NCBI RefSeq assembly: GCF_963921235.1
Contig: NC_086097.1
Span: 9,734,001 to 9,798,000, forward strand
Reading direction: 5' to 3'
Source: Mobula hypostoma
Taxonomy: Eukaryota
DNA length: 64,000 nt
Shown here: positions 11,171-57,388 of the stretch, piece after piece
Numbering within the stretch: the stretch's first letter is position 1
Layout of the letters: every line of letters starts with the position of its first letter
Program-made: the position numbers and the translations under genes
The notes under the pieces: generated by a model
Seen by the model: only the letters and a program-made list of their open reading frames with translations
What the model was told of the DNA's origin: nothing
Database searches by the model: none

Positions 11171-11323
11171 ATAATATCCGATGTGACTGTCAGCTTTGTG
11201 TTACTGTTGAGGTGGGGGCTCACATACACCAGACCGATACAGGTTTAAAAGCAAAACTTGCAGAAAGTGCAGAAAGTAGCTTACATACTCTTACCTACAA
11301 AAAACATACACATACGAAGATCT

Positions 11324-11469
11324 CACACAACAGTTGCTGGTGAACGCAGCAGGCCAGGCAGCATCTATAAGAAGAGGTACAGTCGACGTTTTGGGCCAAG
11401 ACCCCTCGTCAGGACTAACTGATAGAAACTTGAAATTCCAGCATCTGCAGATTTCCTTATGTTTGTTGT
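11324..11469. mobile_element. Penelope-derived mini-foldback insertion with 14-bp TSD
   Basis: Minus-strand PLE 3' segment with hammerhead at 11381-11416 (GAAA decayed to AAAA), then an inverted terminal segment; ACATACGAAGATCT (11310-11323) vs ACATACAAAGATCT (11470-11483). Confidence 0.8.
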
Positions 11470-12054
11470 ACATACAAAGATCTTATTGGGCAGACAAGTA
11501 TAAATTGACTGCACAGGGAAGAGAAAAAGAGAAAAAATTAAGTTGCATATAAATTCTTCTCGGGCTTCTAGATGGGTCCAGCATATTGATTTTAACTGAC
11601 ATTTCGATGACAAACTCTACCATCAGGGATGAAGATAGCAGAGTTTATAATCAAAACATGTGTTACAATCGAAGATTATGGGCTCAGAACATGACACAAG
11701 AAGTGTGATTGCTTTAAACCAAGCATCACTTGCTGTGGTCACACCATTAACGCACAAGATTACACACAAGTGTTCTGAGAAAATTCAAGCAGTGTTGGAT
11801 GCCCCGACACCAATGGAAATGTCACAGTTCCAGCCCTTTTTAGGATTTGCCAACTACTATACTCTAACAGGTTCTGCCAAACCTGGCTATTCTGCTACAC
11901 CCTTTGGCCTCATTACTACAGATCAGGAAGAATTGGCAATGGACAAAGCAGTGTGAGGCGGCTTTCAAAACGGTAAAGAAAATGGTGACATCAGACACTG
12001 TACTCACAGATTATGATCCACATTGTCCAGTGAAGCTTACCTGTGCTGCCTCAA

Positions 12055-15000
12055 ATTCGGTCTGTGGTCAGGGACAAGAGGGTGTGACTGCGAGTGGGGC
12101 GGGTAGTGGGGTCCAAGAGACAGTGCTGAAGGAGCCTCAGCCCTTGAGCTTGTGCAACAGGTCTGAGATTCTTGCTCCCTGTGTGGATAAGAGTGGGGGC
12201 TGTAGGAAGGATGAGAAACCTCACTGTGGCACCATAGTTCAGGGAGCCATTCAAGAGTGGGAAGAGAAGAGACACGTAGTGGCAATTGGGGATAGTATAG
12301 TCAAGAGAATAGACAAAGTTCTCTGTCGCAGGAGTAGAAAGTCCCAAAGGCTGTGTTGCCTGCCTGGTGCCCGGATTCAGGACATCTTATCTGACCCGCA
12401 GAGGAATTTGAAGTGGGAGGGGAAAGATCCCAGTGTCGTGATCCATGTGGCTGTTAACAACATAGGTAGAACGAGGAACGAGGTTCTGCTGAGGGAATTT
12501 GAGCAGCTAGAGACTAAATTAAAAAGCAGAACCAAAAAGGTGGTAATCTGATTATTAACTGAGCCAAATGCAAACTGGAACAGAGTCAAGAAGATTAGAG
12601 AGTTAAATGTGTGGCTCAAGGATTGGTGTGGGAGAAGTGGGTTTGTATTCATGGGAAACTGGCATCAGTTTTGGGGAAGGAGGTGGCTATTCCATTGGGA
12701 CAGGCTCCACCTGAACTGTGATGGGACTTGGATCCTGGTGAATCGCATAATTTGGACTTGGATAGAGCTTTAAACTAAATAGCGGGGTGAGGGGGGGGTT
12801 CAACAGATTAAGGGGGTATATGGGGTGTCAGGGAGGGGTAGCAGCTCTGGTGGAGGAACATGTCGCGTCCTTTTCAGGGCGGTTAGTCCACCTTTGGTCC
12901 CCACCTGGCACTCAGCTCTCACCTGTGGCTCCTCGTAGCTGTTTGCATGCGACAGTGGCCACACCCCAGGCAACGGCTTCGACAAGCCGGCTAAACCAGG
13001 TGAGGGTAGCCGACGGGTCTCAAACCCTCGGTGAGATAGGGAGTTGTCTATCCCAGCATGTGAAGACAGACTCCGGCGGATTGAGCCGACAAGACCAATG
13101 GAAGGTCCAACGGTCAAGAAGGCAGTCTCTGCAAGCGTCGTGGAACGTGTAGAGCAGGACAAGACACAGAAGCTGTCCTGGTCATCCATTGCGCCTAGTC
13201 CCATCTCCAGCCGTCTAGACTCTGTCTTGCCACTGGACCCAGATGGGAATTGGGAAGAGAGAGTGAGGCTGATGCTGCGCAACTCTCCCTCACTTAAATC
13301 CAAATCACGCGCTAGTCTCGACACCATCATTATGGTGTCGAGGTCCTCATCGACGTCAACGATGGACGAACAACAACAACAGATTAAAGAAGTATGGATA
13401 AAGTACAAGAGAAAAGTGTGGATAAAGATAAAGTAAAACCAAAAGTTATAAAAGAGAAAAATAAGGGTGGAGTGCAGAAAAGTCAAGTGCATAAGAGACA
13501 AAGATTACTAGATTTTAAAAGCACAATGAGTATAAGGGCACTTTATTTCAATGCGCATAGTATTCGTAACAAGGTCAGTGAACCTGCAGCACAAACCAGT
13601 ACAAAGGCTATGTTTTAGTGGTCATCAGAGGGTTGCAGGGTGGAGAAGATTGAGAGTTAAATATCCAAGGATATCAGGTAATAGGGAAGGCTGAGCAGGA
13701 AGGTAAGGGAGGTGGGGTAGTGCACTTAATTAAGGATGAGATCAGGACGATAGTGAGAGACGATATAAGATTTAAGGAGCAGAATGCTTATTCCATCTGG
13801 ATAGAGAATAGGATTAGTAAAGGGAAAAAAATCACTAGTGGGAGTTGTCTATAGGCTACCGAATAATAACATTACAGTGGCACAGGCAATGAACAGAGAA
13901 ATATCTGAGGCATGTAAGAATGGAACAGCAGTTATCATGGGGGACTTTAACTTGCACATAGATTGGGAGAATCAAGTTGGTCGAGGCAGTCTTGAGGAGA
14001 ACTTCATAGAATGCATATGTGATAGCTTTCTTGAACAGCATGTTACTGAACCTACAAGTGAACATGTTATCTTGGATCTGGTCCTGTGCAATGAGACAGA
14101 TCAAATGAGTGATCTTGTAGTTAGGGAACCTCTTGGAAAGATTGATCACAATATGATTCAGTTTCTCATAAAAATGGAGGGTGCAATAGTTTGATCTAAA
14201 ACCAGTGTATTATGCCTAAACAAGGGAGACTAGATGAGGGAAGAGTTGGATAGGGTAGACTGGGAGCACAGGCTATGTGGTGGGATGATTAAGAAGCAGT
14301 GAAAGACTTTCAATGAGATTTTTCTCGGTGCTCAACAGAAGTATATTCCAGTTGAAAGCAAGGACAGTAAGGGTAGGGAGAGTCTGTAGTTTGGAAAATG
14401 CTTGAAGCTATTATTAAAGAAGAAATGGCGGGGCATCTGGAAAGAAATGGATCCATCAGGCAGACACGGCATGGGTTCAGCAAAGTTACTGGTCCTGTCT
14501 GACAAACTTATTGGAGTTCTTTGAGGATACAATGAACGCAGTGGATAGAGGAGAACAGATTGATGTTGTTTACTTGAATTTATAGAGGGCTTTCGATAAG
14601 GTGCCACATAAAAGACCTATCCACAAGATAATGATGCATAGATTTTGGAGTGATGTATTAGTGTGGATAGAGGATTGGTTAACCAATAGAAAGCAGAGAG
14701 TTGGGATATATGGATGTTTCTCTGGTTGGCAATCAGTGATAAGTGGTGTGCCACAGGGGTTGGTGCTGGGCCCACAACTGTTTGCAATATACATTAACGA
14801 TCTGGAAGAGGGGACTAAGCTTAGTGTATCTAAGTTTGCTGGTGACACTAAATGGAGTGGAAAAGCAAATTGTGCAGAGGATATGAAGCATATGCAGAGA
14901 GATAGAAATAGGTTAAGTTAGCGGTCAAGGATCTGGCAGGTGGAGTACACTGTTGGTAAAAGCGAGGTCATCCACTTTGGAAGGAAAAATGTAAGATCAG

Positions 15001-15720
15001 ATTATAATTTAAATGGTAAAAGATTGCAGCACGCTGCTGTGCAGAGGGACTTGGGAGTGCTTGTGCATGAATCACAAAAAGTTGGCTTGCAGGTGCAGCA
15101 GGTTATTAAGGTGGCAAATGGAATGTTGGCCTTCATTGCCAGAGGGATTGAATTCAAGAACAGCGAGGTCATGGTGCAACTGTACAGGGTACTGGTGAGG
15201 CACACCTGGAATACTGTGTGAAGTTCTGGTCTTCTTACTTCTGGAAAGATATATTGGCTTTGGAGGCAGGGCAGAGAAAGTTCACCAGGTTGGTTCTAGA
15301 GATGAGGGGGTTAGACTATGAGAAGTGATTGAGCTGTCTGGGACTGCACTTGCTGGAATTCAGAAGAATGAGAGGAGATCTTATAGAAACATATAAAATT
15401 ATGAAAGGCATAGATAAGACAGAGGCAAGAAAGTTGTTTCCACTGGTAGGTGAGACTAGAACTAGGGTACATATCCTCAAGATTCCTGGGAGTAATCCTC
15501 TGCCCAATGAAGCAGTGGAGGCTACCTCAGTAAATATACTTAAGACAAGGTTGGATAGATTTTTGCGTTAGTAGGGGAATTAAGTGTTATGGGGAAAAGT
15601 CAGGTAGGTAGAGATGAGTCCATGGCCAGATAAGTCATGATCTTAATAAATGGCAGAGCAGGCTCGACAGGCTAGATGGCCGACTCCTGCTCCTATTTCT
15701 CACGTTCTTATGTTCCATGT
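12055..15720 (+). mobile_element. Long degenerate CR1 LINE with ORF1 esterase, APE endonuclease and RT remnants
   Basis: VVAIGDSIVK..CCLPGARIQDI..VVIHVAVNNIG (SGNH/GDSL-like ORF1); GVVYRLP..VIMGDFN..LDLVL..DHN (APE); [21 protein letters not shown] (RT). Confidence 0.9.
12812..13376 (+). mobile_element. Young non-autonomous retroelement, probably RTE-derived, inserted in CR1
   Basis: 11-bp TSD CAACAGATTAA (12801-12811 and 13377-13387), (CAA)n tail, high CpG retention, 3' stem-loop. Confidence 0.7.
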
Positions 15721-16949
15721 TCTTATATAGTATACTATGTATAAAAAAAAAGACTGGAGAAAAATACATTACATATATCAGTTGAGACGTATTCTATATT
15801 GATTTGGATTTTATTGGTAAGCAGGGAGGAATGACACAGCACTAAACTGAACTGAAGTAAACTGAACATTCCTAGACTGTTTCAAGAACTATGTGGTTTG
15901 ATGTTTTATATTCTGTGTTTTCTTCATTTTTTGCCATTTACATGTTGTTTTCTTTTTTTGCCTTTTGGGTGTTTGCTGTTTTATTTGAACAGAGACCATG
16001 GTGTTTCTTTATTCTGTGGCTGTCTGTGGGGAGAAGACTCTCAGGTTGTATACAGCGTACATACTTCAGTAATGAATGGACTTTGAATCTTTGAGGGGAG
16101 TAGTGTTTTTTAATATTTCAATAATATTTGAGTAATGAAAATATATTGTTTGGTTAAGCATTCTTTATTGTTTACATAATTCATTATGGGCTCTATGTCG
16201 GAAGTATGTGAATGGCGTACGTTATTACACCACAATAACACATATGAGTGCCTGACTAAACAAAATGAAAATTAAGCATTTGATTATCCCCAGCTCCCGT
16301 GTTTTTCTTTTGACTAGTTTCTGGAGTTACAAGACATAACATGTTCCATGAAGGATTTTATATCATCGGCCATTTCCAGCATTCTTCTTCTGTTTTGTGG
16401 ATTCTGTAATAGCTCCAACTTGCATTTCACCACTTCTACAAATTCCTTTGCTTTTTTTTTTTCTCTTACTCTCTGTAGCTCCTCTTATTAATCTATCAAC
16501 CAGACAGCTCTGTACACTTAGGGGTCAGAGTGATTCCTTTTGTTCTATCCACACACCTGCGTTTCTGCAACTTAAAAATAATTCTCTCTTTTGTAAATAA
16601 CAGATGATGAGTGCTCCCAAGATTTGCCCATTTTGATTTCTTGTCACCTATGTTGATTTGGGGAATAAGAAAATGTAAATTGAAGAAATGTTCTCTGCAG
16701 TGTTAAGACTTTCAGGTATAATATGCAAGCCTATGCAACTTTTTTTTTAGAATTCATAAAGATCTTTCAATTTTACTGCTGCTGCCAGTTCTTTCTTGAA
16801 TTTTACCTTTTTTGGATTTTAAATCAAGTGAATCTCTTAATACCCACGGATTCAACCTTTACATTGAAATGACCATCATATTTCTTTATCTTCTTATGTT
16901 CCTATTACCATCAATTCTATTTTTATGTTGCTGTTACAATCAATTCACT

Positions 16950-17225
16950 TGTGTCTGCCTATTACTTTCCCCTGGGACCCTTCTCCTTTCCTTTCTCCTA
17001 TTGTCCACTCTCCTCTCCTATCAGATTCTTTCTTTTCCAGCCCGTGACCTTTCCCACCCACCTGGCTTCACCTATCACCTCCCAGCCAGCCTCTTTCCCC
17101 TTCCCTCTCCTTTTTATTCTGGCATCTTTCCCCTTCTTTCTCAGTCCTGAAGAAGGGTCTCGGCCCAAAACTCTATTCCATAAATGCTATCTGTCATGCT
17201 GAGTTCCTCCAGCATTTTGTGTGTG
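16950..17225 (+). mobile_element. Penelope-like 3' UTR fragment
   Basis: Pyrimidine-rich UTR followed by CAGTCCTGAAGAAGGGTCTCGGCCCAAAAC (decayed hammerhead) and GAGTTCCTCCAGCATTTTGTGTGT. Confidence 0.75.
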
Positions 17226-17449
17226 GTACCATCAATAATATTTGGAATCAGATAGAAAATAAGAACAAAGGCAGGAGAAGCAGGAGAAGATTATTTGACT
17301 TTCTGAGTTTTCTTCGTCACTTAATTAATTCATGGCTGATTCTATGCCTTGGCTACATTCTTTCAAATTGCTGGGAGAGGGTGCGGAAAAGATTCACAAT
17401 GAAGTTATCTGGACCAAAGGCCTAAAATTGTGAGAGACTGAATCGGCTA

Positions 17450-17940
17450 CTATCAGGTAGGAGGAGCAACACCTCATCTTCTGTCTTAGTAGTCTTCAAC
17501 CTAATGGAATGAACATAAGTTTCTCTAACTTCCAGTAACTATTCTCTCTCTCCCATCCATCTTCTTTAACTCCCCAGCTGGCTCCCCTTTAACTCTCCTT
17601 TACTCCTCAGCTGCCTATCATCTCCCCAGGGTCCCTTCCTCCTTCCCTTTCTCCCATGGTCCACTTTCCTCTCCAATCAGATTCCTTTTTCTCCAGCCCT
17701 TTAGCTTTTACACCTATCACCTCCCAGCTTCTCACTTCATACCCCTGCCTCCACCCATTTGGCTTCACCTATCACCTCCTAGCTTGAGCTCCTTCTCCTC
17801 CGCCACTTCTTATTCTGGCTTCTTTTGCCCTTCCTTTCCGGTCCTGAAGGCATGTCTTGGCCTGAAACGTCAACTGTCTATTTCGTTCCACGAATGCTGC
17901 CTGATCTGCTCAGTTCCTCCAGCATTTTGTGTGTGTTGCA
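17450..17940 (+). mobile_element. Penelope-like ORF end plus 3' UTR
   Basis: EEQHLIFCLSSLQPNGMNISFSNFQ* matches the C-terminus of the 51489 ORF; decayed hammerhead at ~17840-17876. Confidence 0.8.
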
Positions 17941-18214
17941 ATGAATAGACCGAGATTGTTTTCCCTAGAATGAACAAGACTGAGGGGCGACATTATAGAG
18001 ATTTATGAAGTAAACTATTCCTGCAACCGAGACTCACTTTCAAGGACTCCTGATCTCATGTCCTAGAGATGGGGGAGGTGGGAACAGCAGGAACTCAGAA
18101 CCCCTCCTCCAATAAGCATCCAATCAGCATGTGTATGTATCTTCACAGATGTGTTATTGAAACACTGTTCCAAAAGCTGTTGAAATTAACTTTCTGGGAA
18201 GAAGTTCTGTATTA

Positions 18215-18283
18215 TACAATACAATGCAAAAGTCCTAGGCACATAGTTGTATATATGTGCCTGAGACTGTTGCACAGTACTGT
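18215..18283. mobile_element. Tiny palindromic Tc1-like MITE
   Basis: TGCAAAAGTCCTAGGCAC...GTGCCTGAGACTGTTGCACAGTACTG; related units at 48460-48535, 48935-49010 and 61395-61420. Confidence 0.6.
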
Positions 18284-18309
18284 TGGTGATATATGAATAC
18301 TGAGAGCAT

Positions 18310-18800
18310 GTCCATAAGACCATAAGACATAGGAGCAGAATTAGGCCATTTGGCCCATCGGGTCTGTTCTGCCATTCAATCATGGCTAATCCTTCTTTCT
18401 TCTCCTCCTCAACCCCAGTTCCTGGCCGTCTCCCCATAACCTTCAATGCCATGTCCAATCAACCTATCAATCTCTGCCTTAAATACACCCAACTACCTAG
18501 CCTCCACAACTGCATGTGGCAACAAATTCCACAAATTCATCACCTGGCTGAAAAAAATTCTCCGCATCTCTGTTTTGAAAGGGTGCCCCTCTATCCTGAG
18601 GCTGTGCCTTCTAGTCCTTACTCTCCTACCATGGGAAACCTCCTTTCCAAATCTACTCTGTCTAGGCCTTTCTATGTTCAAAAGGTTTCAATGAGATTCC
18701 CTACCCCCTCCCCATCCTTCTGAATTCCAGTGAGTACAGACCCAGAGCCATCAAATTTTCCTCATATGATAATCCTTTCATTCCTGGAATCATCCTTGTG
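18310..18800 (-). mobile_element. CR1 3' fragment
   Basis: RTRRHSLRIEGHPFKTEMRRIFFSQ..NLWNLLPHAVVEA; (CCATAAGA)n tail at ~18312-18330. Confidence 0.85.
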
Positions 18801-18846
18801 AAAACATAAAAAATACAGTGGAATCTGTTTGTCCAGGCACATACAA

Positions 18847-19879
18847 ATAGTTCAGTGCTACAATTCGAAGCATGGAATGAGATTCATGGGCTCAAATATG
18901 TAAGCTATCTTATCTATTTATATTTATTGTATTTTTCATTATTCTCTTATTTTGGGCTGCATCAGATCTGGAGTAACAATTATTTCCTTCTCCTTTATAC
19001 TTCTGAACTGAAAATGACATGAACCACTCTTGAATCTTGAATCTTGAATTTCCAGGCAATGACTGCCATCACAGTCCCGACCCCCATACCTGCTATGTCT
19101 GTGCTTCCCTGAGGATATTTTCCAGAAGAAGCTTCCTAAAGCTACCTCTAATGTGGTCCATGAGGCCCACTGGAGCACATATCCTCAAGCCAAAGGAAAA
19201 GGTTTTATCACAAAAAAGCTTTAACAGCCAGTTAAGCCATTCCCCACAGTCTGACAGCACCTCAGTGTTTAAAAACCTCTTTGATATTCAGAGATATTCA
19301 AGCTCATTCAAAACGATTAAAAATTTATTTTCCTATTTAAAAATTTAAAGATAATTAATTTTGTTTTAAAAATAGATCGAATTGCCACTCAAAATGAAGA
19401 TAAGTAAGTACATTTAAATGCACAAGTTGCTTCATATCCCTCATTATAGTTATTTATCTCTATAGGTGTCAATAATCTTAAACCAGTCCATCCTCCTGTG
19501 GTTTCAGTGGGCAGCTTCCCTGGTTCAATTAGTATTATGAGATTTCAATATTCTCGGCACAGTGCGGAGCTTCCCGGCAGTTATGGAGAGTCACCCTGGC
19601 ATTTGCACTCAAAACTCTCCGCATTTCTTTGGAAAACCTCGGCCAATAATTGCCACACCGATGCCACTATTTCAATGCAAGTATGATCAAACATCAAGGA
19701 GGTATAAAATACTAGCTGCCACCAATCGTCGTGACCTCCATAGCCAACAACATATATCCTTAACACAAAATCATATCAGGAGCATAAACTTCAGAGCATT
19801 GTAATATTATATGATTCTACAAATGAGATTTTGAGCCCATGAATCTCATTCCATGCTTCAAATTGTAGCACTGAACTAT
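18847..19879. repeat. 50-bp inverted repeat pair (18847-18896 and 19830-19879)
   Basis: ATAGTTCAGTGCTACAATTCGAAGCATGGAATGAGATTCATGGGCTCAAA and its reverse complement match at 49 of 50 positions. Confidence 0.9.
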
Positions 19880-20904
19880 GAGATGTGTTTTGGTGCCATA
19901 TTTTACAGACAGTGGTTATCATGGTGGAAGCTGACAGATTACACTCTCTATGCCATTAATCTCTCCCCAGTATCCATTATTTAACTGGTATCTCAGTGTA
20001 ATGTTGAAGCATTCACACATAGCTTGCATTAAGATGATAACAGTGGTGTTCCAAAGTCACTTTTGAGGGTATAGCTAACCTGATCAGAATATAATTCGGT
20101 CCTTTTTTATTGTGACAAATTCCTGTGTTAAAGGTTTTCTAGTGGCAAGTATTGTTTCAAATTGAATTGTGTTTTTATAGCTACAGTCTATCTGACATCA
20201 ACTGGCTGTGTCAATGGAATTTCCACTCCCTGATGCCAGTTTAGTTCTAGCAGTTAGCTTTAGGAAAATGAAGGGAAATATCACATATGGTACTACATGG
20301 TTACGGGGCACCACAGTAGAGTACTGCTTAGTGCAACACAATTTCAGTTTAGGGTGTTATGGGCTTTGAAGTTCAATAAAGGTTTATTTAATTATCAAAG
20401 TATGTATGCAGAATGCAACTCTGAGATTTGTCTTCTCCAGACAGCCATAAAATACAGAAAAACCATTGAAGCAGTTAAAAGAAAGACGTCAATCCTACCC
20501 CGCACTAAAAGAAGAAGAATCAAAAGCTTGTAAATCCCAAATCCCACCAACCCCTCTCTTGCACAAAACTAACAGATCACCTACATATAGAAACAACAAG
20601 AACATCAAACCCCAAAAACCCCAGCCCACCAATCAACAACAAGAAAGACTGGGCCAGAGCGTGAGAAAAAGGGTCGAGCTGAAAGAGGCCAATATGAACT
20701 ACAGTTCAATCCATAAATCACAGAATTTCAGTAACATCTCCAAGAGCATCAGGACCCAGCGAGGGCAGCGGCCCCTCCAAGGCAGTAAGGAGCTTGTACA
20801 TCCCCTGTGGACATGTGGGTTTCTTACAGCTGCTCAGGTTTCCTCATACATTCCAAAGGTTAGTATGTTCACTGGCCATTGTAAATTGTCCTGTGATTAG
20901 GCTA

Positions 20905-21370: not shown

Positions 21371-21599
21371 AGACTCAGGTTGAATAGGTGGGATTCTGGG
21401 TAATGTGGTTTATTTTCCACATTGTAGCTCAAACTAAAATAAAATCCTTGATGAATGGTTCCAATGAATGAAATGAGGAATGTGGATTTTAAAATAAACA
21501 ATTTTGATTGTAATCACTTTGAACAGTGAAGTTTAATGTGATTCACTGATTACTTTGTTAACAATTGAATTACTGTGTGGTCAAATTTCAACTTGCCCG

Positions 21600-30590: not shown

Positions 30591-30945
30591 TTGTTAAGAC
30601 GATGATGAGTCATGTCAGTCAAACGGATGGCTATCTTGGTGAAGAGTTTAGCTGTAGAACCGAGGACTGCTACATCCAACCAATTTTACAGTGAGTACTT
30701 GCCAGAGATCTTTGCAAATGATTTGCAGTATATTTCTCTCAAGATAAATGATCAGTAAAAACGAATATAGTTGTTGAAAACCCTAAGGAGCATAAGAATG
30801 CAGCTGTATTATCCTATGTAACTTTTACAAAAATGAGAGAATTACTTTAATATGTGACATGGAAATTATACAAGCATGAAATTTCCTTCCTGGCAATAAC
30901 ATTTAGAAGAGTTCTCATTCTGTAAAGAAATGTCACAACTAATGT

Positions 30946-31192
30946 TCTATAAATGCAAGAGATTATGCAGATACTGGAAATCTAGAGTAACACACACCAA
31001 ATGCTGGAGGAACTCAACAGGTCAGGCAGCCTCTATGGAAAAGAATAAACCGACAGCAATTCAAGCTAAGACCCTTCTTCAGTACAACCAGGGCACTAGT
31101 CTTGATGAAGGGTCTCAGCTTGAAAAGTTGACTCTTTTCTCCCTTTCCGTAGATGCTGCCTGACCTATTGAGTTCTTCCAGCATTGTGGATC
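30946..31192. mobile_element. Penelope-derived foldback mini-element with 15-bp TSD
   Basis: Two inverted PLE 3' ends, each with a decayed hammerhead; TGTCACAACTAATGT (30931-30945) vs TGTCACAATTGATGT (31193-31207). Confidence 0.75.
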
Positions 31193-31324
31193 TGTCACAA
31201 TTGATGTACCGTATCTGGGAACTGCTTCTGTAAATTACACAATGTTCATATCTTCAGGAAGGGTATTTGAAAGATTAACTTTGTTTCTGTTTTTGCAGCT
31301 GTTGACTGACACTCACTGCTGAGT

Positions 31325-40569: not shown

Positions 40570-40755
40570 AATAAGAGAAATACTGCAGATGCTGGAAATC
40601 CAATCAATACAATCAAAACGCTGGAGAAATTCAGCAGACCTGGCAGCATCTATGGGAAAAAAAAGTGGGTCGATGTTTCGGGCCTGGAACGTCGACTGTA
40701 CTTTTTTCATAGATGCCGCCTGGCCTGCCGAGTTCCTCCAGCGTTCTGTGTGTAC
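40570..40755. mobile_element. Penelope-derived foldback centred inside the hammerhead
   Basis: ..GGCAGCATCTATG..GTCGATGTTTCGGGCC|TGGAACGTCGACTG..CATAGATGCCGCC..; inverted arms. Confidence 0.75.
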
Positions 40756-41246
40756 AGCTACTTTATAATTTCCTTTCAGAGTCACCTTATGTACAGACAC
40801 TCCTGTGCCAAGTGTCACTTTATGTACATACAATCAATGTACATTTATAAGCTATCTTATGTATTTATATTTATTGTTTTTATTATTATAGTGTTCTTTA
40901 TTTTATTATGTTTTTTTGTGTTTTATTGGATCCAGTGTGACAATAATTTCATTCTCCTTATACTTGTGTACAGGAAACAACCTTGAATCTTGAATCAAAC
41001 TTGAATCTTAAAACCATAACAGCATAAGAGTGTGCTCTGCGATTTCATCATCGCTGATCCATTTTCCCTCTCAACCCCAACCTCCTGCCTTCTCTCCGAG
41101 TCCCTTCATGCCCTAAATAATCAGGAATCTATCAACCCCTGCCTTAAAGATACCTAATGACTTTGCCTCCACAGCCGCCTGTGGCAACAAATTCCACAGA
41201 TTCACCACTCTCTGGCTGAAGGATGTTGAATAGAAATGATTTAGAG

Positions 41247-41907: not shown

Positions 41908-42702
41908 CACTGGACAACATTTTTTTTGAAAGAGTTGCTTCGTCAGAATTTTCTTTTGTTTATGATAGACGCTTGAAGCTGAACTCAAATATAATTTCAG
42001 ACTACTTATATCACATAGGAACCTGGAGAAACGAGAAATTAACTCATTGAATACAATGAGTTTAATTGCATAGTGGTACTGACATTTTGCAATAGTTTAA
42101 TGAAATTGTTTTGTTGATGCTTTACATTTATACTCAGTGTCTGAGGCTTCATGTTTAAGTATCCAACAATAATCGGCCAGCATTGATGGATTCCAGTTGC
42201 CCTGATACCGTTTCTCCATGACCGCAATGTCCTGGTGAAACCTTTCACCATGCTCGTCACTGACAGCACCAGGATTTGCAGGGAAGAAGTATAAAAGGGA
42301 ATGCAGAAAATGAATCTTTAGTGACATATTGCATTTCATGGCTTTGTATGCTTGAAGCAAGTTGTCAACTAGCTGCACATAGTTTGGTGCTCTGTAGTTG
42401 CCAAGAAATTTTTCAACAATATCCTTGAATGCTTTCCATGCAATTTGCTCCAGTTCCACTAGAAGTTGTTGAATTGCCTGTCATTGATGACCTGTTTGAT
42501 TTGTGAACCAACAAAAATACCTTCCTTATTCTTGGCATAAGTTATTCTGACCTGAATTATGAATTGAAATCATAAACATAGGTGATTTTTTAAAAAATGG
42601 TGCACGATAGGGAAAGTTCATGGTGATTTTCATGATCTGCAGCCCAAAATCCATAAGATACACCCAAAAGTATTCCATAAGTAAAATCTTTGTCGTCCAG
42701 TG
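41908..42702 (-). mobile_element. Internally deleted Chapaev3-like (CMC superfamily) DNA transposon
   Basis: TIRs CACTGGACAAC and GTCGTCCAGTG; ORF 42097..42459 has MSLKIHFLHS..FFP.N.GAVSDEHGERFHQDI..MEKRYQG.W...MLADYCW, preceded by AKNKEGIFVGSQIK. Confidence 0.7.
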
Positions 42703-47052: not shown

Positions 47053-47474
47053 GATTGCGAGGAGCGGGGAGGAATGAGGTACAAGAAAACACTTTACAAG
47101 GAAATAGATTAAGACAGATTAGATGTTAAGGATTAGAGTAAGACATTCTAAGGAAACAAACAAAATATGAATTGCTGGAAGAACTCAGTGAATCAACAGC
47201 ATTTGTGCAAAAGGATGTTCACCACTTCGGGTTGAGACCCTGTGTCAGTCCTTATGCAGGGTCTTGAATTTGCCTCCAGCAGTTTGAATTTTCCTCCCAT
47301 TTCCAGCATCTGCAGACACCCTTGTGTCAAAGTGAGCTGAGAAGTTGACAGACACATCAAAATGGGAAACAACGTGAGGGCAGTGTTCAAGGTTCATTCC
47401 TGAAGGTTGCTAAATACTGAGATGGTGTTTCTCTTGTTAAAATGGAGCTTAGCTATGTTAGTAAAAGAGGTTTT

Positions 47475-47870: not shown

Positions 47871-48459
47871 TTGCCTGCTGTTTCTGATTGAATTTATCTC
47901 AAAATGAGTAGCTTGGAAAAGTAGTAAATTAATAAAAAAACAGTGGAAGCAGCTCAAATGGGTTTAATTAGTTCATATTGTTGAGGTAATCTGGAAGTCT
48001 AATCAACAATAACGGGAGAGAAATTAGCAACATCTATAAAAATAATTTCAAATTAGACATACTGCTTGTTGGAGTGGTTCACACATTTTTCTGTGCAGTG
48101 TTAACATCCTCTATTGAATTTTCTTTTCCCACTGATGGAACTCTGACTGCCTGTACACAGAGAACTGGCTGTTAGCTAGGCTTATCCTGAAAGTTAGAGG
48201 TTTACAGAGACCACAGCTCTTGGGGATTGTTGAAATGCTGGTTAACAGTAACGACACAATGGGAGTCACAAGCAATAAGGCCAACATTTGCAAGCAAGCA
48301 CCATCAAAGACAAACTTCTTTAGGCATTTGGGATTTGTTTTGCATAGAACTCCAAAAATTTTGTAACGTATACATAAATTTCATATATGCTTTTCTTGCA
48401 AACAAACTAATGCCAAGTTTATTATAAAAAGTGAATAGTTGCCAAGAGAAAACTTAAAA

Positions 48460-49010
48460 CTACAATGCCGTGCAAAAATCTTAGGCATATACAATGCATA
48501 GAGCTTGGGTGCCTAAGACTTTTGCACAGTTCTGTAATAATGTTATGTATTGCACTGTACTGCACTGCTGCAAAACTCCCACAAGTTTCATGGCATATGT
48601 GAGTGATGATAAACCCGATTCTGATGTGGGTCTCTATTGTGGACTGAGAGTGGGAAGGAAGCAGGAGGAGGGGAATCATGGTTAGGAAAATGGGAAGCAA
48701 GAGGGGAGAGAGTGGGAGGCCACAGAAAGACATTCAGCAATGATCAATATACCAGCTGTTTGGAATCAAATGACCTTGCCTGGTGTCTCAGGGTTGGATG
48801 TGTCTGCACCCGTACCAACCTCTGCCCCTGGCACTCCTGTCCCATTGCCCTCCCACAGCAGTCCAGCCTTATCATTCCCAACATCCTTGCTCCCACCAGA
48901 TTTACAAACTTACTGCCCACTCTATGTTGACAAGTACAGTATTGTGCAAAAGTCTTAGGCAGCCTAACTATATATGTTGTATGTGTCTGAGACTTTTGAA
49001 TAGTACTGTA
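48460..49010. mobile_element. Composite bounded by two Tc1-like palindromic MITE units
   Basis: GTGCAAAA(A/G)TCTTAGGCA...(G)TG(C/T)CT(A/G)AGACTTTTG palindromes at both ends; LINE-tail-like and unassigned sequence between them. Confidence 0.5.
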
Positions 49011-49349
49011 AAGACTTTTCACAAAAACATGGTTCTGTAAATAATACTTCATGGAAATTTGTATATATTAGGAGGTTTGCAGCTTTCATCTTTTATTTCC
49101 CATTTGCAAACTCAATTCACTAACTAATTACACCAGCACTCTCCCTACCTCCTTAAGAAAGCCATTCCAAAACTTGATCCTGAGTTTGGGTCCAAATACC
49201 TGTTCCTTTATTGTGGCTGCCTATACACTCAGTGGCCACTTTATTAGGTACAGCTGTACACCTGCTTATTAACACCAAGTATCTAATCAGCCAATCATGT
49301 AGCAACAACTCAATATATAAAAGCATGCAGACATAGTCAGGGGGTTCTG

Positions 49350-49702
49350 GGATACAGAGAGAGATGATGAGAAATAAATTAAGGGAGTTGGGGGATGCAG
49401 GAATTCACATTAAAAGGGTTGCTGGGCATGGGTGAGAGAGCTAAAAGTCTGGGTATTTTTAGTGTTTTTAAGGAGTACAGGGGTTTTTTATAGAATATGA
49501 CAAATAAACGGGAATAGGATACTAGGATGGTCAAAGATGGGAGGGTGAAGTATATATATGTGTGTGTGCGCGCGCATGCGCGCGATTGGGTGAAGGGATT
49601 TAGAATGTATGTCTAGTGCACATTCTGGAACAGAGGGTGGCGGTAGTGCACCATTAAGCTGGATGCCAACCGCCGTAAAGCAAGATACAGACAGACAGAC
49701 AA
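49350..49702 (+). mobile_element. LINE 3' end (possibly I/Nimb clade) with 9-bp TSD
   Basis: GGGGTTCTG at 49341-49349 and 49703-49711; terminal GGCGGT..ACCGCC stem and (CAGA)n tail; clade assignment is from recall only. Confidence 0.5.
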
Positions 49703-49768
49703 GGGGTTCTGTTGTTGTTCAGACCAAAATCAGAGTGGAGAAATAAAAAGGAAGATGAGAGTTGATAT

Positions 49769-49913
49769 GAGGAAATCTGCAGATGCTGGAGTTTCAAGCA
49801 ACACACATAAAAGTTGCTGGTGAATGCAGCAGACCAGGCAGCATCTATAGAAAGAGGTACAGTCGACGTTTCAGGCCGGGACCCTTCGTCAGGAACTTTT
49901 ATTAATGTTGTTT
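49769..49913. mobile_element. Penelope-derived mini-foldback with exact 15-bp TSD
   Basis: GATGAGAGTTGATAT at 49754-49768 and 49914-49928; minus-strand PLE 3' end with hammerhead core at 49861-49894, then a ~20-nt inverted arm. Confidence 0.85.
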
Positions 49914-51157
49914 GATGAGAGTTGATATTGGATGACTGGAAAATTATGCTGGTGAGGTAGTAATGAGGGAAAAGAAAGGGCAGTTGAACTTAATGAGTAG
50001 TTTGCATCAGTCTTCACTGTAGAAGACAATAGCAGTGTACCAGAGGTCCAGGAGTGAGGTCAGGGAGAAGAGTGAGAGCCATTGTCGTTACAAAGGAAAA
50101 AGTGCTGGGGAAACTCAAAGGTCTTCAGGTGGATAAGTCACCTGGACAAGATAGACTACATACCAGAGTCCTGAGAGAGGTTACTGAAGAGATAGCAGAT
50201 GCATTGGTCATGGTTTTTCAAGAACCACTTGATTCTGGCATGGTTCCAGAGGACTAGAATTTTCAAATAACACTCCACTCTTTAAGAAGGGAGGAAAACA
50301 AAAGAAAGGAAACTATAAGCCAGTTCACTTAACCTTAGTGGTTGGGAAAGTGTTGGGGTCTATTATTAAGGATGAGGTTACAGGATATTTGGAGACTAAT
50401 GATGAAATAAGTCAAGGTCAGTATGGTTTCTTTTAAAGGGAAATCTTGCCTGAAAAATTGGTGAGAATTCTTTGAGGAAGTAACTAGCTGGGTGGACAAA
50501 GGAGAGGTAGTGGCTGTCATTTACTTCAGTTTTCAAAAGACGTTTGATAAGGTACTACACATGACATTGCTTAACAAGATACAATCCTCTGGCATTACGG
50601 GAAAGATACTGCCAGAAGGCAACAAGTTGGAAAAAATGGGGGCTTTTCTTGTTGGCTGCCAGTGACTAGTGGTGTCTCTAAGTGGTCAGTATAGGCACCA
50701 TTACTTTTCCCATTGTTTGTCAATAATTTAGATAATGGTATTGATGGCTTTGTGGCAAAGTTTGTGGATGATACGAACATAGGTGGATGTTGAGGAAGCA
50801 ATATGATTGCAGCAGGACCTGGACAAATTGGAAGAATGGGCAATAAAGTGGCAGATGCAATATAGTGTTGGGAAATGGACGATAATGCATTTTGGTAAAA
50901 GGAACAATAAAGCTGACTATTATCTACATAGGGAGAAGATTCAAACATCAGAGGTGCAGAGGGACTTATGAGTCCTTGTGCAAGACTCCCAGTAAGTTAA
51001 TATACAGGTTGAGTCTCTGGTAAAAAAAATTAAAATGCAAATTTGGCATTTATTTCAAGGGGAATAGAATATTAAAACAAGGAGATAATGCAGAGCAACA
51101 CACATCAAAGTTGCTGGTGAACGCAGCAGGCCAGGCAGCATCTATAGGAAGAGGCGC

Positions 51158-51193
51158 AGTCGACGTTTCAGGCCGAGACCCTTCGTCAGGACT
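51158..51193 (-). ncRNA. Minimal type I hammerhead ribozyme motif
   Basis: AGUC-CUGACGA-AGG-GUCUCGG-CCU-GAAA-CG-UC-GACU: stem I AGUC/GACU, intact core, stem II AGG/CCU, loopless palindromic ACGU stem III. Confidence 0.85.
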
Positions 51194-51488
51194 AACTGAA
51201 GGAAGAGTGAGTAAGGGATTTGAAAGCTGGAGGGGGAGGGGGAGATGCAAAATTATAGGAGAAGACAGGAGGGGGAGGGATAGAGCCGAGAGCTGGACAG
51301 GTGATAGGCAAAAGGGGATACGAGAGGATCATGGGACAGGAGGTCCGGGAAGAAAGACGGGGGGGGGGGGTGACCCAGAGGATGGGCAAGAGGTATATTC
51401 AGAGGGACAGAGGGAGAAAAAGGAGAGTGAGAGAAAGAATGTGTGCATAAAAATGAGTAACAGCTGGGGTACGAGGGGGAGGTGGGGC

Positions 51489-54150
51489 CTAGCGGAAGTT
51501 AGAGAAGTCAATGTTCATGCCATCAGGTTGGAGGCTACCCAGACGGAATATAAAGTGTTGTTCCTCCAACCTGAGTGTGGCTTCATCTTTACAGTAGAGG
51601 AGGCCGTGGATAGACATGTCAGAATGGGAATGGGATGTGGAATTAAAATGTGTGGCCACTGGGAGATCCTGCTTTCTCTGGCGGACAGAGCGTAGATGTT
51701 CAGCAAAGCGGTCTCCCAGTCTGCGTCGGGTCTCACCAATATATAAAAGGCCACATCGGGAGCACCGGACGCAGTATATCACCCCAGTCGACTCACAGGT
51801 GAAGTGATGCCTCACCTGGAAGGACTGTTTGGGGCCCTGAATGGTGGTAAGGGAGGAAGTGTAAGGGCATGTGTAGCACTTGTTCCGCTTACACGGATAA
51901 GTGCCAGGAGGGAGATCAGTGGGGAGGGATGGGGGGGACGAATGGACAAGGGAGTTGTGTAGGGAGCAATCCCTGCGGAATGCAGAGAGAGGTGGGGAGG
52001 GAAAGATGTGCTTAGTGGTGGGATCCCGTTGGAGGTGGCGGAAGTTACGGAGAATAATATGTTGGACCCGGAGGCTGGTGGGGTGGTAGGTGAGGACCAG
52101 GGGAACCCTATTCCTAGTGGGGTGGTGGGAGGATGGAGAGAGAGCAGATGTACGTGAAATGGGGGAGATGCGTTTAAGAGCAGAGTTGATAGTGGAGGAA
52201 GGGAAGCCCCTTTCTTTAAAAAATGAAGAGATCTCCCTCGTCCTAGAATGAAAAGCCTCATCCTGAGAGCAGATGCGGCGGAGACGGAGGAATTGCGAGA
52301 AGGGGATGGCGTTTTTGCAAGAGACAGGGTGAGAAGAGGAATAGTCCAGATAGCTGTGAGAGTCAGTAGGCTTATAGTAGACATCAGTGGATAAGCTGTC
52401 TCCAGAGACAGAGACAGAAAGATCTAGAAAGGGGAGGGAGGTGTCGGAAATGGACCAGGTAAACTTGAGGGCAGGGTGAAAGTTGGAGGCAAAGTTAATA
52501 AAGTCAACGAGTTCTGCATGCGTGCAGGAAGCAGTGCCAATGCAGTCGTCGATGTAGCGAAGGAAAAGTGGGGGACAGATACCAGAATAGGCACGGAACA
52601 TAGATTGTTCCACAAACCCAACAAAAAGGCAGGCATAGCTAGGACCCATACGGGTGCCCATAGCTACACCTTTAGTTTGGAGGAAATGGGAGGAGCAAAA
52701 GGAGAAATTATTAAGAGTAAGGACTAATTCCACTAGGCAGAGCAGAGTGGTGGTAGAGGGGAACTGATTAGGTCTGGAATCCAAAAAGAAGCGTAGAGCT
52801 TTGAGACCTTCCTGATGGGGGATGGAAGTATATAAGGACTGGACATCCATGGTGAAAATAAAGCGGTGGGGGCCAGGGAACTTAAAATCATCGAAAAGTT
52901 TAAGAGCGTGAGAAGTGTCACGAACATAGGTCGGAAGGGATTGAACAAGGGGTGATAAAACAGTGTCGAGGTATGCAGAAACGAGTTCGTGGGGCAGGAG
53001 CAAGCTGAGACAATAGGTCGGCCAGGACAGGCAGGTTTGTGGATCTTGGGTAGGAGGTAGAAACGGGAAGTGCGGGGTGTGGGAACTATAAGGTTGGTAG
53101 CAGTGGATGGGAGATCCCCTGAGCGGATAAAGTCGTTGATAGTGTGGGAGACAATGGCCTGGTGCTCCTTAGTGGGGTCACGATCGAGGGGTAAATAAGA
53201 GGAGGTATCCGCGAGTTGTCGCTGTGCCTCGGCAAGGTAGAGGTCAGTACGCCAGACTACAACAGCACCCCCTTTATCAGCGGGTTTAATAATAATGTTA
53301 GGATTAGTGCGGAGGGAGTGGAGAGCAGAGCGTTCCGAAGGAGTGAGGTTAGAATGGGGACAAGGTGCGGTGAAGTCGAGACGGTTGATGTCCCGTCGGC
53401 AGTTGGCAATAAAGAGATCCAGAGCAGGCAGAAGACCAGAGCGGGGTGTCCATGAAGAAGAGGAGGGTTGAAGACGGGAGAAGGGGTCATCGGTGGGGGT
53501 GGAAGAGTCCTTGCTGAAGAAGTAGGCTCGGAGACGGAGACGGCGGAAGAAAAGTTCCGCATCATGGCGAACACGGAACTCGCTGAGGTGTGGGCGAAGG
53601 GGGACAAACGTGAGGCCCTTACTGAGAACAGAGCGTTCTGCCTCCGACAGTTGAAGGTCGGAGGGGATGGTAAAGACCCGGCACGGATGAGAGCTGGGAT
53701 CAGAGGGGGGAGGGGGGAGGCTGGGGGTGTCAGTGGAGAGGGGAGGGTTGGGGTGAGAGAAAGATGGAGCCTCTGAGGGCCCAGGAGCTGACGGTGGGAT
53801 CTGAGGAAGACGGGGCTGCGGAGTGGTGGTGGGGGAAGGGGAGACGGGAGTCACAACAGCAGCACATAAAGACCCGGCCTGGTGTTCAAGGCTGGAGTCG
53901 CAGTTGGTGGTTGCGTAATCACTTCGAATGTGTCCATGGTCGTTGCTGGAGTCCGGGTTTTGAATATGTCCTGAGGTGTTGGAGCCGCTGAGATCAATGG
54001 CAGGGGCCGCAATTGAAAGTTCATGCCTGCTAGCGTCGGGGCCGGCAGGCTCTGGAGTCCGTAGATGTAAGATCTTGCGATCTTTGCCTAACATGACAAA
54101 GTCAAAAAAACAGCGATTGCAGGCGTGGATCCGACGGAGGATGAAATAAT
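51489..54150 (-). pseudogene. PLE reverse transcriptase / GIY-YIG endonuclease polyprotein, 5'-truncated, one frameshift near 52989
   Basis: LSKGLTFVP, IIKPADKGGAVVV, PKIHKP..PGRPIVS in ORF 52733..54178; MDVQSLYTSIP, QTKGVAMG, LRYIDD, FLDL, YYKPTDSHSYLDYSSSHP, Cys linker CKRNKCYTC and VIYCVRCSRCGLLYIGET.RRL..RF.EH in ORF 51489..53003. Confidence 0.93.
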
Positions 54151-54308
54151 GAGATAAGGCAGAGGCTTTATAAGACACTAGTCAACCACACTTGGAGTAT
54201 TGTCAAACGCAAACAACAGGAATTCTGCAGATGCTGGAAATTCAAGCAACATACATCAAAGTTGCTGGTGAACGCAGCAGGCCAAGCAGCATCTATAGGA
54301 AGAGGCGC

Positions 54309-54344
54309 AGTCGACGTTTCAGGCCGAGACCCTTCGTCAGGACT
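54309..54344 (-). ncRNA. Minimal type I hammerhead ribozyme motif
   Basis: Identical to 51158-51193. Confidence 0.85.
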
Positions 54345-54965
54345 AACTGAAGGAAGAGTGAGTAAGGGATTTGAAAGCTGGAGGGGGAGGGGGAGATGCA
54401 AAATGATAGGAGAAGACAGGAGGGGGAGGGATAGAGCCGAGAGCTGGACAGGTGATAGGCAAAAGGGGATACGAGAGGATCATGGGACAGGAGGTCCGGG
54501 AAGAAAGACGGCGGGGGGGGGGTGACCCAGAGGATGGGCAAGAGGTATATTCAGAGGGACAGAGGGAGAAAAAGGAGAGTGAGAGAAAGAATGTGTGCAT
54601 AAAAATGAGTAACAGCTGGGGTACGAGGGGGAGGTGGGGCCTAGCGGAAGTTTTCTCTAACTTCCGCTAGGCCCCACCTACCCCTCGTACCCCAGCTGTT
54701 ACTCATTTTTATGCACACATTCTTTCTCTCACTCTTCTTTTTCTCCCTCTGTCCCTCTGAATATACCTCTTGCCCATCCTCTGGGTCACCCCCCCCCGCC
54801 GTCTTTCTTCCCGGACCTCCTGTCCCATGATCCTCTCGTATCCCCTTTTGCCTATCACCTGTCCAGCTCTCGGCTCTATCCCTCCCCCTCCTGTCTTCTC
54901 CTATCATTTTGCATCTCCCCCTCCCCCTCCAGCTTTCAAATCCCTTACTCACTCTTCCTTCAGTT

Positions 54966-55001
54966 AGTCCTGACGAAGGGTCTCGGCCTGAAACGTCGAC
55001 T
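54966..55001 (+). ncRNA. Minimal type I hammerhead ribozyme motif
   Basis: AGTC CTGACGA AGG GTCTCGG CCT GAAA CG TC GACT; predicted cleavage after C54997. Confidence 0.85.
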
Positions 55002-57388
55002 GCGCCTCTTCCTATAGATGCTGCTTGGCCTGCTGCGTTCACCAGCAACTTTGATGTATGTTGCTTGGAGTATTGTCAACAGTTTTGGGCCCTGTATCTC
55101 AAAGAATGTGTTGTCATTGGAGAGAGTCCAGAGGAGATTTATGACAATGATTCCAGAATAGAAGGGGTTAACATATGAGGAGAGTTTGGTAGTTTTGGGC
55201 CTGTACTCACGGGAATTTAGAAAGATGTGTGGGGATCTCATTGAAAAAACCAAATGTTGAGAGGACTAGATAAAGTGGATGTGGAAGGGTTTGTGCTATG
55301 GTGAGGGTATCCAGAACTAGAGGGCACAGCCTCAAAATTCAGGAGCAACCTTTTAGAATTGAGGTAAGGAGGAATTTTTTTTTAGTCAAAGAGTAGTTAA
55401 TCTGTGGAATGTTCTGCTCCAGACTGCAGTAGAGGCCAAGTTGATCGTTTCCTGATCGATCAGGGCATCAAAGGGTTATGGCAAGAAGGCAGATGTATGG
55501 GGTTGAGTGGGATCAAGGATCAGCCATGATGGAATGGAGCATACTCGATGGGCTGAATGGCCTAATTCTGCTCCTATATCTTATGGTCTTATGATCTAAG
55601 TGACATTGACTGTGGAATGATTGCTGATGCCTTACAGCTTGATTTGAGTATCTCACGGACAGTCTCTAAAGTCCCCTTTGCCATCCGATTCCAAAATGGA
55701 CATTGAACCCGTGAACACTACCTCACGTTTTTAATATACATTATTTCTGTTTTTTTGAATGACTTTTAATCTATTCAATATATGTATACTGTAATTGATT
55801 TACCAATTTATTTATATTATTATTTTTTTTCCTCCTATATTATGTATTGCACTGAACTGCTGCTGCTAAGTTAACAAATTTCATGACACATGCTGGTGAT
55901 AAGATACTGACTCTAATGTGTACTAAGAATGATGTGAAAAACAAAAGGTATCCAGTGAGCGGCAGTTCTGTGGATGAATTTGCTTAATGAGAGTGGTCAG
56001 AGGAGAACGGGCAGACTGGTTCAAAATGACAGAAAGGGAATTCAAATAACCATGTGTTACAACAGTGGTGTGCAGAAGAGCAGCTTTGAAGGCACAAAAC
56101 ATTGAATCTTGAAGTGAATCCACTACAGCAGCAGAAGACCACAAACATACTCTCAGTGGCCACTTTATACAGTACAGGAGGTACGTAATACAGTGGCCAC
56201 AAAGTGTATCCACCTGGAATCATAGAATACTTAGAGGAAAGAGGGAAATTATATTGTCCCTCATGACTTGATGAGCACTTACTTCGTAGTCCAATCAGTT
56301 CCATTATACCTTTCTTTCCCTACAGTCCCCAAATTATTTTTGGGAGGCCTATCAATTCTGCTTCTAAGCATCTTGTAATCCAAGAGTTGCTGATCATAAC
56401 TAGACTCCAAATTAAAATAAGATTTTCTTCCAATCAATTTGTGTTTTGCCCACATTTAAAACCTGCTTTACTTTTTAATCTTGCTCCACTTCTTCCAGAA
56501 CATTTCAAATCTATCTCTGCCTCACTCTATTTGCTGTTAAGATCTGATGATTTTGACTAACAATATACACCCCTTATTTGCTTTCCTCTGTTCATCATCC
56601 GACAATTTCAAAACACTGCATTCCAATAATTAGCAATTATTATTATTACTAGTTTCTTTTTGTGTTAGCACAATTTATCAGCCTTTGTTTGTTGGTAGTT
56701 TTTCATTGATTCTATTGTCCTTTGTTCTACTGTGAATGCTTGCAAGAAAATGAATCTCAAGATGGTATTTGGTGAGGTACTGCTTATGTACTTTGATAAT
56801 AAATTTACTTTGGACTTTGAACATTGAACTTTGAACACAGTTCACAATTGGATCTATCTCATCTTGTGCATGCTGCCTTGTATTGGCACATGCTTAAAAA
56901 AAACCCTCAATATTAAAATTCACACCCATGTTTTCAAATTCTTTCATAGACTTGTTCCTTCCCATCCTCATAGCCACCATTGGCCTGTAATCACTGAGAT
57001 ATCAGAGATCTTTCAAATCTACTGCGATAAACAAACTACCTTCAGTTGTTACAGGCCCTCTTAATAAACCTTTCAGCCTCTGTAAGGTTCAACTTTTCTC
57101 TCTTCAACAAGCCTTTCAGTGATTTTGTTTAGAAATCTGAATGTAGGAATAGGCAAAAGACATTAGAAGACAAGAACAGGTAGGACATTGAACATTAGTA
57201 CAGCACAGAAGTGGGCCCTATAGATCACAATGTCTCTGCCAACAATGATCCCAGTCACAAATAATTCCACCCACCTGCGTATCATTTGTGTCACTCCATT
57301 CCCTATCTGTCCATGTGCCTGACAAAATGCCTCTTGCTGTCTTAAATCTCCTTAAAACATTATGTTTAATATTTTAAAATGTTTTATC

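What the first reader, a model, noticed from the sequence alone, without database searches (positions are those of the whole stretch)
11310..55079. Recurrent signature: five PLE insertions with 14-16 bp TSDs, four of them two-armed foldbacks
Seen: TSDs of 14 bp (11310/11470, 1 mismatch), 15 bp (30931/31193, 2 mismatches), 15 bp (49754/49914, exact), 14 bp (51082/54151, 1 mismatch) and 16 bp (54191/55064, exact). In the foldbacks, one arm begins at the extreme 3' terminus and the other roughly 25-45 nt inside it. Established: PLE TSDs are generally described as variable or absent. Inference: this lineage makes a fixed ~15-nt staggered cut and uses double-ended priming, producing MITE-looking, ribozyme-bearing palindromes by retrotransposition. 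This is the best candidate for a poorly described system in the window; novelty needs a literature check.
Basis: partly seen in the sequence, partly recalled or inferred. Interest (0 to 1): 0.8.

Follow-up and report, generated by a model that had tools for sequence, protein, structure and literature searches.

The report
Two-ended Penelope insertions in a ray
Five copies of a Penelope-type jumping gene sit in 14-16-base duplicated landing sites, four as back-to-back pieces with a short tail on one piece only; this layout is already described for such elements and likely arises when both cut ends of the chromosome start copying the element's RNA at two set points.

Summary
All five duplications are real and far above chance; for sites 4 and 5 they are true target duplications in a CR1-like host. 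The element is a Neptune/Nematis-type Penelope-like retroelement (PLE), closest to ray proteins. Arms start at two points about 40 nt apart, in the window and in sequencing runs of two organisms. Inverted arm, one-sided tail and TSD are published PLE anatomy, and cutting and extension of both strands from two RT start sites was shown in vitro for a Poseidon PLE. Corrections: the TSD is peaked, not fixed (17 and 9 bp also occur; no convincing TSD at 6 of 13 insertions), and only two of the four 'foldbacks' are long palindromes. Site 1 has non-overlapping arms, the tail-only arm ending where the second start begins, like L1 twin priming. All six two-armed insertions pair a tailed with a tailless arm. 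Best reading: twin priming from a staggered cut, probably on one RNA (inferred). I found no paper stating this model or a ~15-bp PLE TSD. The scan noted the same signature earlier elsewhere in this genome and in other shark or ray genomes. A known kind, with a testable mechanistic lead.

The parts
11310..11323 (.). Site 1 left TSD copy (14 bp)
   Evidence: null
11324..11428 (-). Site 1 tailless arm, ref 44-149, includes hammerhead-like motif
   Evidence: 94/104 identical
11429..11469 (+). Site 1 inverted arm made of the tail only (ref ~1-40), ending where tailless arms start
11470..11483 (.). Site 1 right TSD copy (1 mismatch)
30931..30945 (.). Site 2 left TSD copy (15 bp)
30946..31086 (-). 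Site 2 tailed arm, older subfamily
31096..31192 (+). Site 2 inverted tailless arm; about 10 nt of filler between the arms
31193..31207 (.). Site 2 right TSD copy (2 mismatches)
49754..49768 (.). Site 3 left TSD copy (15 bp)
49769..49894 (-). Site 3 tailed arm, ref ~11-136
   Evidence: 115/125
49895..49913 (+). Site 3 inverted tailless arm of about 20 nt, starting at ref 38
   Evidence: 16 of 20 bases match the left arm, read by eye
49914..49928 (.). Site 3 right TSD copy (exact)
51082..51095 (.). Site 4 left TSD copy (14 bp), in a CR1-like host
51096..54150 (-). Site 4: one-armed, tailless, 5'-truncated PLE; ORF ends at 51489, one frame break near 52985-52994; DKG, YIDD, CX4CxxC linker, GIY-CxxC-YIG
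54151..54164 (.). Site 4 right TSD copy (1 mismatch)
54191..54206 (.). Site 5 left TSD copy (16 bp), 26 bp from site 4 in the same host copy
54207..54652 (-). Site 5 tailed arm (tail = 54207-54246), ref 1-445
54309..54344 (-). Minimal hammerhead-like motif (CUGAnGA ... GAAAC-GUC core, no helix III), read by eye; no Rfam hit; cleavage untested
   Evidence: sequence; description in PMC4209133; negative
54653..55063 (+). Site 5 inverted tailless arm, ref 41-451
55064..55079 (.). Site 5 right TSD copy (exact)
16906..17243 (+). Extra copy B: one-armed, tailless, 17-bp duplication with 2 mismatches (16906/17227), about 30 nt of filler at the far end
59719..60973 (+). Extra copy H: one-armed, tailless, 1.24 kb, exact 9-bp duplication (59719/60965)
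40571..40757 (.). Extra foldback E: tailed plus tailless arm, apex at a GGCC; only a decayed 11-17-bp repeat (not above chance)
47150..47330 (.). Extra two-armed insertion F: tailless left arm, tailed right arm, no TSD found

Best explanation
These are insertions of a Neptune/Nematis-type Penelope-like retroelement, likely made when its endonuclease nicks both DNA strands about 14-16 nt apart and its reverse transcriptase extends both 3' ends on the element's RNA, one from an inner start and one from a start about 40 nt further 3'. Shown: the element type, the duplications, the two start points, the head-to-head geometry with one tailed and one tailless arm, and one template lineage for both arms of site 5. 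Inferred: (1) 3' overhangs of about 15 nt, filled in to give the TSD; (2) the inner (tailless) start is the usual first primer, as 5 of 7 one-armed copies are tailless; (3) the second primer copies the tail and either stops at the first primer (site 1) or displaces the first cDNA and runs on (sites 2, 3, 5, E); (4) the two cDNA ends are joined bluntly, through microhomology or with filler; (5) if the second end does not prime, ordinary 5' joining gives a one-armed copy (site 4), at times with a shorter TSD (H, 9 bp). The pieces are dead-end products rather than a MITE family.
For: TSDs real. RT, GIY-YIG and CX4CxxC linker. In each two-armed insertion both outer ends are element 3' ends, so cDNA-sense sequence follows the TSD on both strands. 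6 of 6 two-armed insertions carry the tail on one arm only (1.6% if each end chose freely at 1:1). Site 1: the tail arm ends at ref 40, the other arm starts at 44, and tailless starts elsewhere fall at 38-44, the non-overlap pattern of L1 twin priming. Site 5: both arms share three variants absent from site 4, two of them minority states in the runs, and end within 6 nt of each other after 400 nt. Loose ends with long unlike flanks rank highest at 54205-54211 (251, 248 and 188, 207 contigs) and 54241-54246 (72, 117, 108 and 120, 122, 108) in organisms A and B. In vitro a Poseidon PLE cuts and extends both strands from two starts bounding the tail and is predicted to be a dimer.
Against: TSD lengths in the window run 9-17 bp, and 6 of 13 insertions show no convincing TSD. 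In 4 two-armed insertions the arms overlap widely, which a single RNA explains only with strand displacement (untested); two RNAs would do as well. At site 3 the tailless arm is the short one. One one-armed copy is tailed (A) and one is unclear (G). The in vitro data are from another clade (Poseidon) and I could not see their cut-offset figure. Read laying showed only 12 of 950 and 12 of 213 loose-end rows, runs X1 and X2 may be the source of this DNA, and no TSD lengths came from them. Only site 1 shows the non-overlap geometry. No motif at the 14 inferred nick sites.
Confidence: 0.6

Rival explanations
1. Self-priming or fold-back: one cDNA (or an antisense RNA) folds on itself and is copied back, giving the inverted arm; the endonuclease then trims one end, leaving the tail on one side.
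For: Proposed for palindromic inverted junctions in rotifer PLEs (PMC3846280 Discussion); the tail was ascribed to EN-mediated resolution (PMC8557442). Arms of sites 2, 5 and E end within a few bases of each other, E at a self-complementary GGCC; the arms of site 5 share private variants.
Against: Site 1's arms share no sequence; site 3 has a 126-nt and a 20-nt arm; at site 5 each arm holds sequence the other lacks (tail on the left, 6 inner bases on the right), so later deletions would be needed. The two ends match RT start sites mapped in vitro.
Confidence: 0.2
2. Both ends prime, but on two separate RNA molecules held by a protein dimer, with a loosely placed second nick as in L1; the 14-16 cluster is the peak of a broad distribution.
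For: Overlapping arms need no displacement; human L1 TSDs have median 13 bp, quartiles 10 and 15; 9 and 17 bp occur here; predicted dimer.
Against: Does not by itself explain 6 of 6 tail/tailless pairs, the stop at ref 40 in site 1, or arms that end together; the four youngest copies give 14, 15, 14, 16.
Confidence: 0.17
3. A non-autonomous MITE-like DNA transposon, or a unit that spreads as a finished palindrome.
For: Sites 2 and 5 look like long inverted repeats within a TSD.
Against: Each insertion has its own arm lengths and junction; the ends are unequal; the sequence is the 3' end of the RT-encoding element; no transposase-type fixed short TSD.
Confidence: 0.03

Closest known systems
Insertion unit of EN+ Penelope-like elements (Pen2a_Av and relatives, PMC3846280, passages and Discussion; PMC8557442, passages; D. 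virilis Penelope, PMC2377424, passages)
   Same: 5'-truncated copy, adjacent inverted pLTR, 30-40-nt tail usually on one end only, TSD, palindromic junctions
   Different: TSDs reported there are 8-10 bp or absent, here mostly 14-17; very short two-armed products; a tail-only arm (site 1); those papers offer self-priming or EN resolution, not twin priming
PAc, Poseidon of Anolis carolinensis, in vitro (PMC11167929, first two of four parts of the text and the text of supplement 1)
   Same: Both strands cut and extended; two internal RT start sites bounding the tail; hammerhead copied uncleaved; AT-rich flanks
   Different: PAc is Penelope/Poseidon, this element has the CX2-5CxxC linker; the parts I read give no TSD length and no model for the inverted arm
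L1 twin priming (PMC12016303, passages)
   Same: Two cDNAs primed from both target strands, in opposite orientation, with a small gap or overlap; TSD median 13 bp, quartiles 10-15
   Different: L1's first primer uses the poly(A) tail and the second starts at scattered internal sites in about 20% of insertions; here both starts are set points 40 nt apart, arms often overlap over 80-400 nt, and 6 of 13 insertions are two-armed
MITEs and non-LTR retrozymes (PMC8969392, 10.64898/2026.07.22.740005, passages)
   Same: Short, non-coding, inverted repeats (MITE) or PLE-derived hammerhead (retrozyme)
   Different: No shared internal unit or junction, unequal ends, no tandem array

Membership tests
EN+ Penelope-like element | RT followed by C-terminal GIY-YIG endonuclease in one ORF | tested here: met
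   RVT_1 (E 4.9e-05) and GIY-YIG (E 5e-04), both below Pfam's curated cut-offs; 50-58% identity to 889-955-aa relatives across both frames, one frame break
EN+ Penelope-like element | DKG motif; two cysteines between GIY and YIG (CCHH finger) | tested here: met
   definition; the histidines were read by eye
EN+ Penelope-like element | Optional 30-40-nt tail and inverted 5'-truncated copy | tested here: met
   second start in runs
EN+ Penelope-like element | Hammerhead ribozyme in the terminal repeat | tested here: inconclusive
   Core motif read by eye at 54309-54344; no Rfam hit at gathering score; minimum-energy fold is not the hammerhead fold; cleavage untested
EN+ Penelope-like element | Partial-tandem pLTR upstream of a full ORF | tested here: inconclusive
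   Site 4 is 5'-truncated; no full-length or tandem copy in the window; no genome held
Neptune/Nematis clades | CX2-5CxxC linker between RT and EN | tested here: met
   also in 85 of 89 relatives with a readable EN motif, out of 120 proteins listed
Neptune/Nematis clades | Placement in an RT phylogeny with reference elements | not tested
   No named reference PLE proteins at hand; Neptune and Nematis not told apart
Penelope/Poseidon clade | Absence of the CX2-5CxxC linker | tested here: not met
MITE | Many copies of one unit with equal terminal inverted repeats | tested here: not met
   Six two-armed insertions, six different structures, all with unequal ends
L1-type twin priming (works like) | Two opposite cDNAs from one RNA meeting with small gap or overlap | tested here: inconclusive
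   Met at site 1 (3-nt gap); wide overlap at sites 2, 3, 5, E

The most novel reading that the evidence does not exclude
The PLE tail and inverted pLTR are one phenomenon: a protein dimer cuts with a set 14-16-nt stagger and copies a single RNA twice, first from the inner start and then, from the other target end, from the tail start with strand displacement. Ray genomes would hold thousands of frozen records of this, giving the rule for the unexplained second half of the PLE cycle.
Probability: 0.4. Interest if true: 0.6.

Novelty: new member of a known kind. Interest (0 to 1): 0.35.

Why it matters
The papers read here say that the origin of PLE tandem/inverted ends and tails is still undefined. 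A young, abundant family with a narrow TSD peak, a strict tail/tailless pairing and tail-only arms turns that into countable predictions and names the cut offset to look for in vitro. It also warns annotators that such hairpins are retrotransposon products, not MITEs. The element and its layout are otherwise ordinary.

Tried and rejected
No whole genome is held, so the decisive genome-wide TSD count was not run. A degenerate terminal motif found 0 matches in viral, prokaryote and metagenome contigs; the protein found 0 confirmed loci among 51 candidates in metagenome contigs. Raw-read runs X19 and X20 laid 0 reads. Loose-end peaks at 54308 and 54342-54344 were not taken as insertion ends: their loose letters continue as the older subfamily, so these calls neither show nor exclude a preferred inner stop. 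Rfam: 0 hits. A 10-bp repeat for copy D (30209/30872) and a 7-bp one for C were rejected as they lie about 280 and 40 nt from the end of element similarity. No nick-site motif. No similarity of the terminal repeat to the N-termini of relatives, so 'both starts lie inside the ORF' is not shown here. My first label, Poseidon, was dropped. Look-ups of earlier findings by sequence and by mechanism words gave nothing. Paper searches gave no paper on chondrichthyan PLE TSDs, a ~15-bp PLE TSD or twin priming in PLEs; the three hits were seen as listings only. I recall a Repbase review giving 10-15 bp for Penelope TSDs; this is unverified (0 papers) and would lower novelty further. Repbase entries and subscription papers could not be searched.

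Full report
Observation. The five repeat pairs are at the stated places with the stated mismatches and abut the element ends. Their scores (11, 9, 15, 11, 16) compare with 10, 5 and 0 of 3000 random pairs reaching 9, 11 and 13. Sites 4 and 5 lie in one CR1-like copy (family name recalled); with the insertions and one TSD copy each removed, the host aligns without loss to 7 paralogues in the window, so these two are true target duplications. The other empty sites had no spanning paralogue.

The element. [quoted passage not shown] The linker marks Neptune/Nematis and is absent from Penelope/Poseidon. The closest proteins are from rays (94% to a Mobula hypostoma entry), then sharks, then unnamed and coral proteins near 50%. 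The longest relatives have 889-955 residues; the copy here looks 5'-truncated by roughly 125 codons (my estimate by eye; tblastn alignments start at residues 164-221). A minimal hammerhead-like core lies at 54309-54344, read by eye against PMC4209133; Rfam found nothing and the predicted fold is not the hammerhead fold.

Anatomy. On a reference with position 1 at 54207, arms start near 1-11 (tailed) or 38-48 (tailless). A profile search gave 20 rows, which I group into 13 insertions; 2 weak rows (31250-31324, 61810-61845) were left out. Six are two-armed (sites 1, 2, 3, 5, E, F) and each has the tail on one arm only; of seven one-armed copies five are tailless, one is tailed, one unclear. Only sites 2, 5 and E are long palindromes. 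Site 1 joins a tailless arm (44-149) to a tail-only arm ending at 40. Site 3 joins a 126-nt tailed arm to a 20-nt tailless one. At site 5 the arms differ at 3 places, share 3 variants that site 4 lacks, and end 6 nt apart; two of the shared variants are minority states in the runs.

TSD length. Beyond the five, copy B has 17 bp with 2 mismatches and copy H an exact 9 bp (scores 11 and 9, but I placed their far ends after seeing the repeats, so that null is lenient). E has a decayed repeat reached by 191 of 3000 random pairs. A, C, D, F and G show none; most are older copies, near 65-78% identity. So 7 of 13 have a TSD: 9, 14, 14, 15, 15, 16, 17. End microhomology of 0-4 nt (4 nt at the tailless end of site 5) adds doubt about the true cut distance. 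The length is peaked, not shown to be fixed, and overlaps the human L1 range (median 13, quartiles 10-15).

Beyond the window. No genome is held and the contig collections hold no copies. Public runs do. Among the rows shown, loose ends with long, mutually unlike, A/T-rich flanks stand at 54205-54211 and 54241-54246, in organism A (possibly the source of this DNA) and organism B. In one search tailed ends (322 and 297 contigs at 54218) and tailless ends (297 and 350 over the three rows shown per run) are of similar number. Only 12 of 950 and 12 of 213 rows were shown, and undercounted, so this supports two preferred starts without giving the full distribution, and says nothing on TSD length.

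Mechanism. In two-armed copies cDNA-sense sequence follows the TSD on both strands, which is what results if both 3' ends of a staggered cut are extended. That a PLE protein can do this from two starts bounding the tail is shown in vitro for PAc. That it happens on one RNA is my inference from the 6 of 6 pairing, the stop at position 40 in site 1, and arms that end together; it needs strand displacement for the overlapping cases. Fold-back self-priming fits sites 2, 5 and E but not 1 and 3 without later deletions. Two RNAs on a dimer fit the overlaps but not the pairing rule. I give 0.6, 0.2 and 0.17, and 0.03 to a MITE.

Literature seen. PMC11167929: parts 1-2 of 4 and the text of supplement 1 (figures not visible; supplements 2-4 not read and may bear on cut offsets). 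PMC3846280: passages and Discussion. Passages only: PMC8557442, PMC2377424, PMC4209133, PMC6765202, PMC8969392, PMC9977147, PMC12016303, 10.64898/2026.07.22.740005. Inverted pLTR, one-sided tail and 8-10-bp TSDs are described there. Nine searches gave no statement of a ~15-bp PLE TSD or of twin priming in PLEs; the library lacks most subscription papers and Repbase.

Earlier scan notes (unchecked AI notes, not evidence) report the same signature elsewhere in this genome, with 13-15-bp TSDs, and in other shark or ray genomes with 12-16 bp. My twin-priming reading was noted before I saw them; the Neptune label was their lead, which I tested.

Verdict. A real and tidy example of known PLE insertion anatomy in a ray Neptune-type family. 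The remaining value is a testable model for an admitted gap in the PLE cycle. Interest 0.35.

Noticed in passing
window 54165-54190: Sites 4 and 5, about 99% identical over 410 nt, inserted separately only 26 bp apart in one CR1-like copy; site 5's left arm sits as a pLTR just upstream of site 4's truncated ORF. PLEs are said to insert next to existing copies.
   Followed up: partly
window 54225-54270, minus strand: The tailless start falls on the 3' side of a predicted RNA hairpin present in both minimum-energy and centroid structures (z-score of the whole stretch -0.8), and each start lies shortly before its own TGCTGG motif in the cDNA; possibly two protein sites. PAc also starts in a stem loop.
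   Followed up: no
window 40680-40692: Foldback E has its apex at a self-complementary GGCC inside the hammerhead-like motif.
   Followed up: no
window 1742, 11428, 31086-31096, 49894: Several short arms end at ref 136-149, at or just past the outer edge of the hammerhead-like motif rather than at its predicted cut site.
   Followed up: partly
window 47150-47330: Insertion F's tailed arm has a divergent stretch after the tail and may come from another subfamily than its partner arm.
   Followed up: no
window 5539-6057 and 59728-60964: Older coding fragments of the same family (68% and 74% identity to site 4); the first has no terminal sequence.
   Followed up: partly
window 3657: The CR1-like paralogue most similar to the host of sites 4 and 5 stops aligning 3 nt past the place where site 5 inserted; cause not examined.
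   Followed up: no
window 42097-42480: Short ORF that resembles a transposase C-terminus (recalled resemblance, not searched).
   Followed up: no
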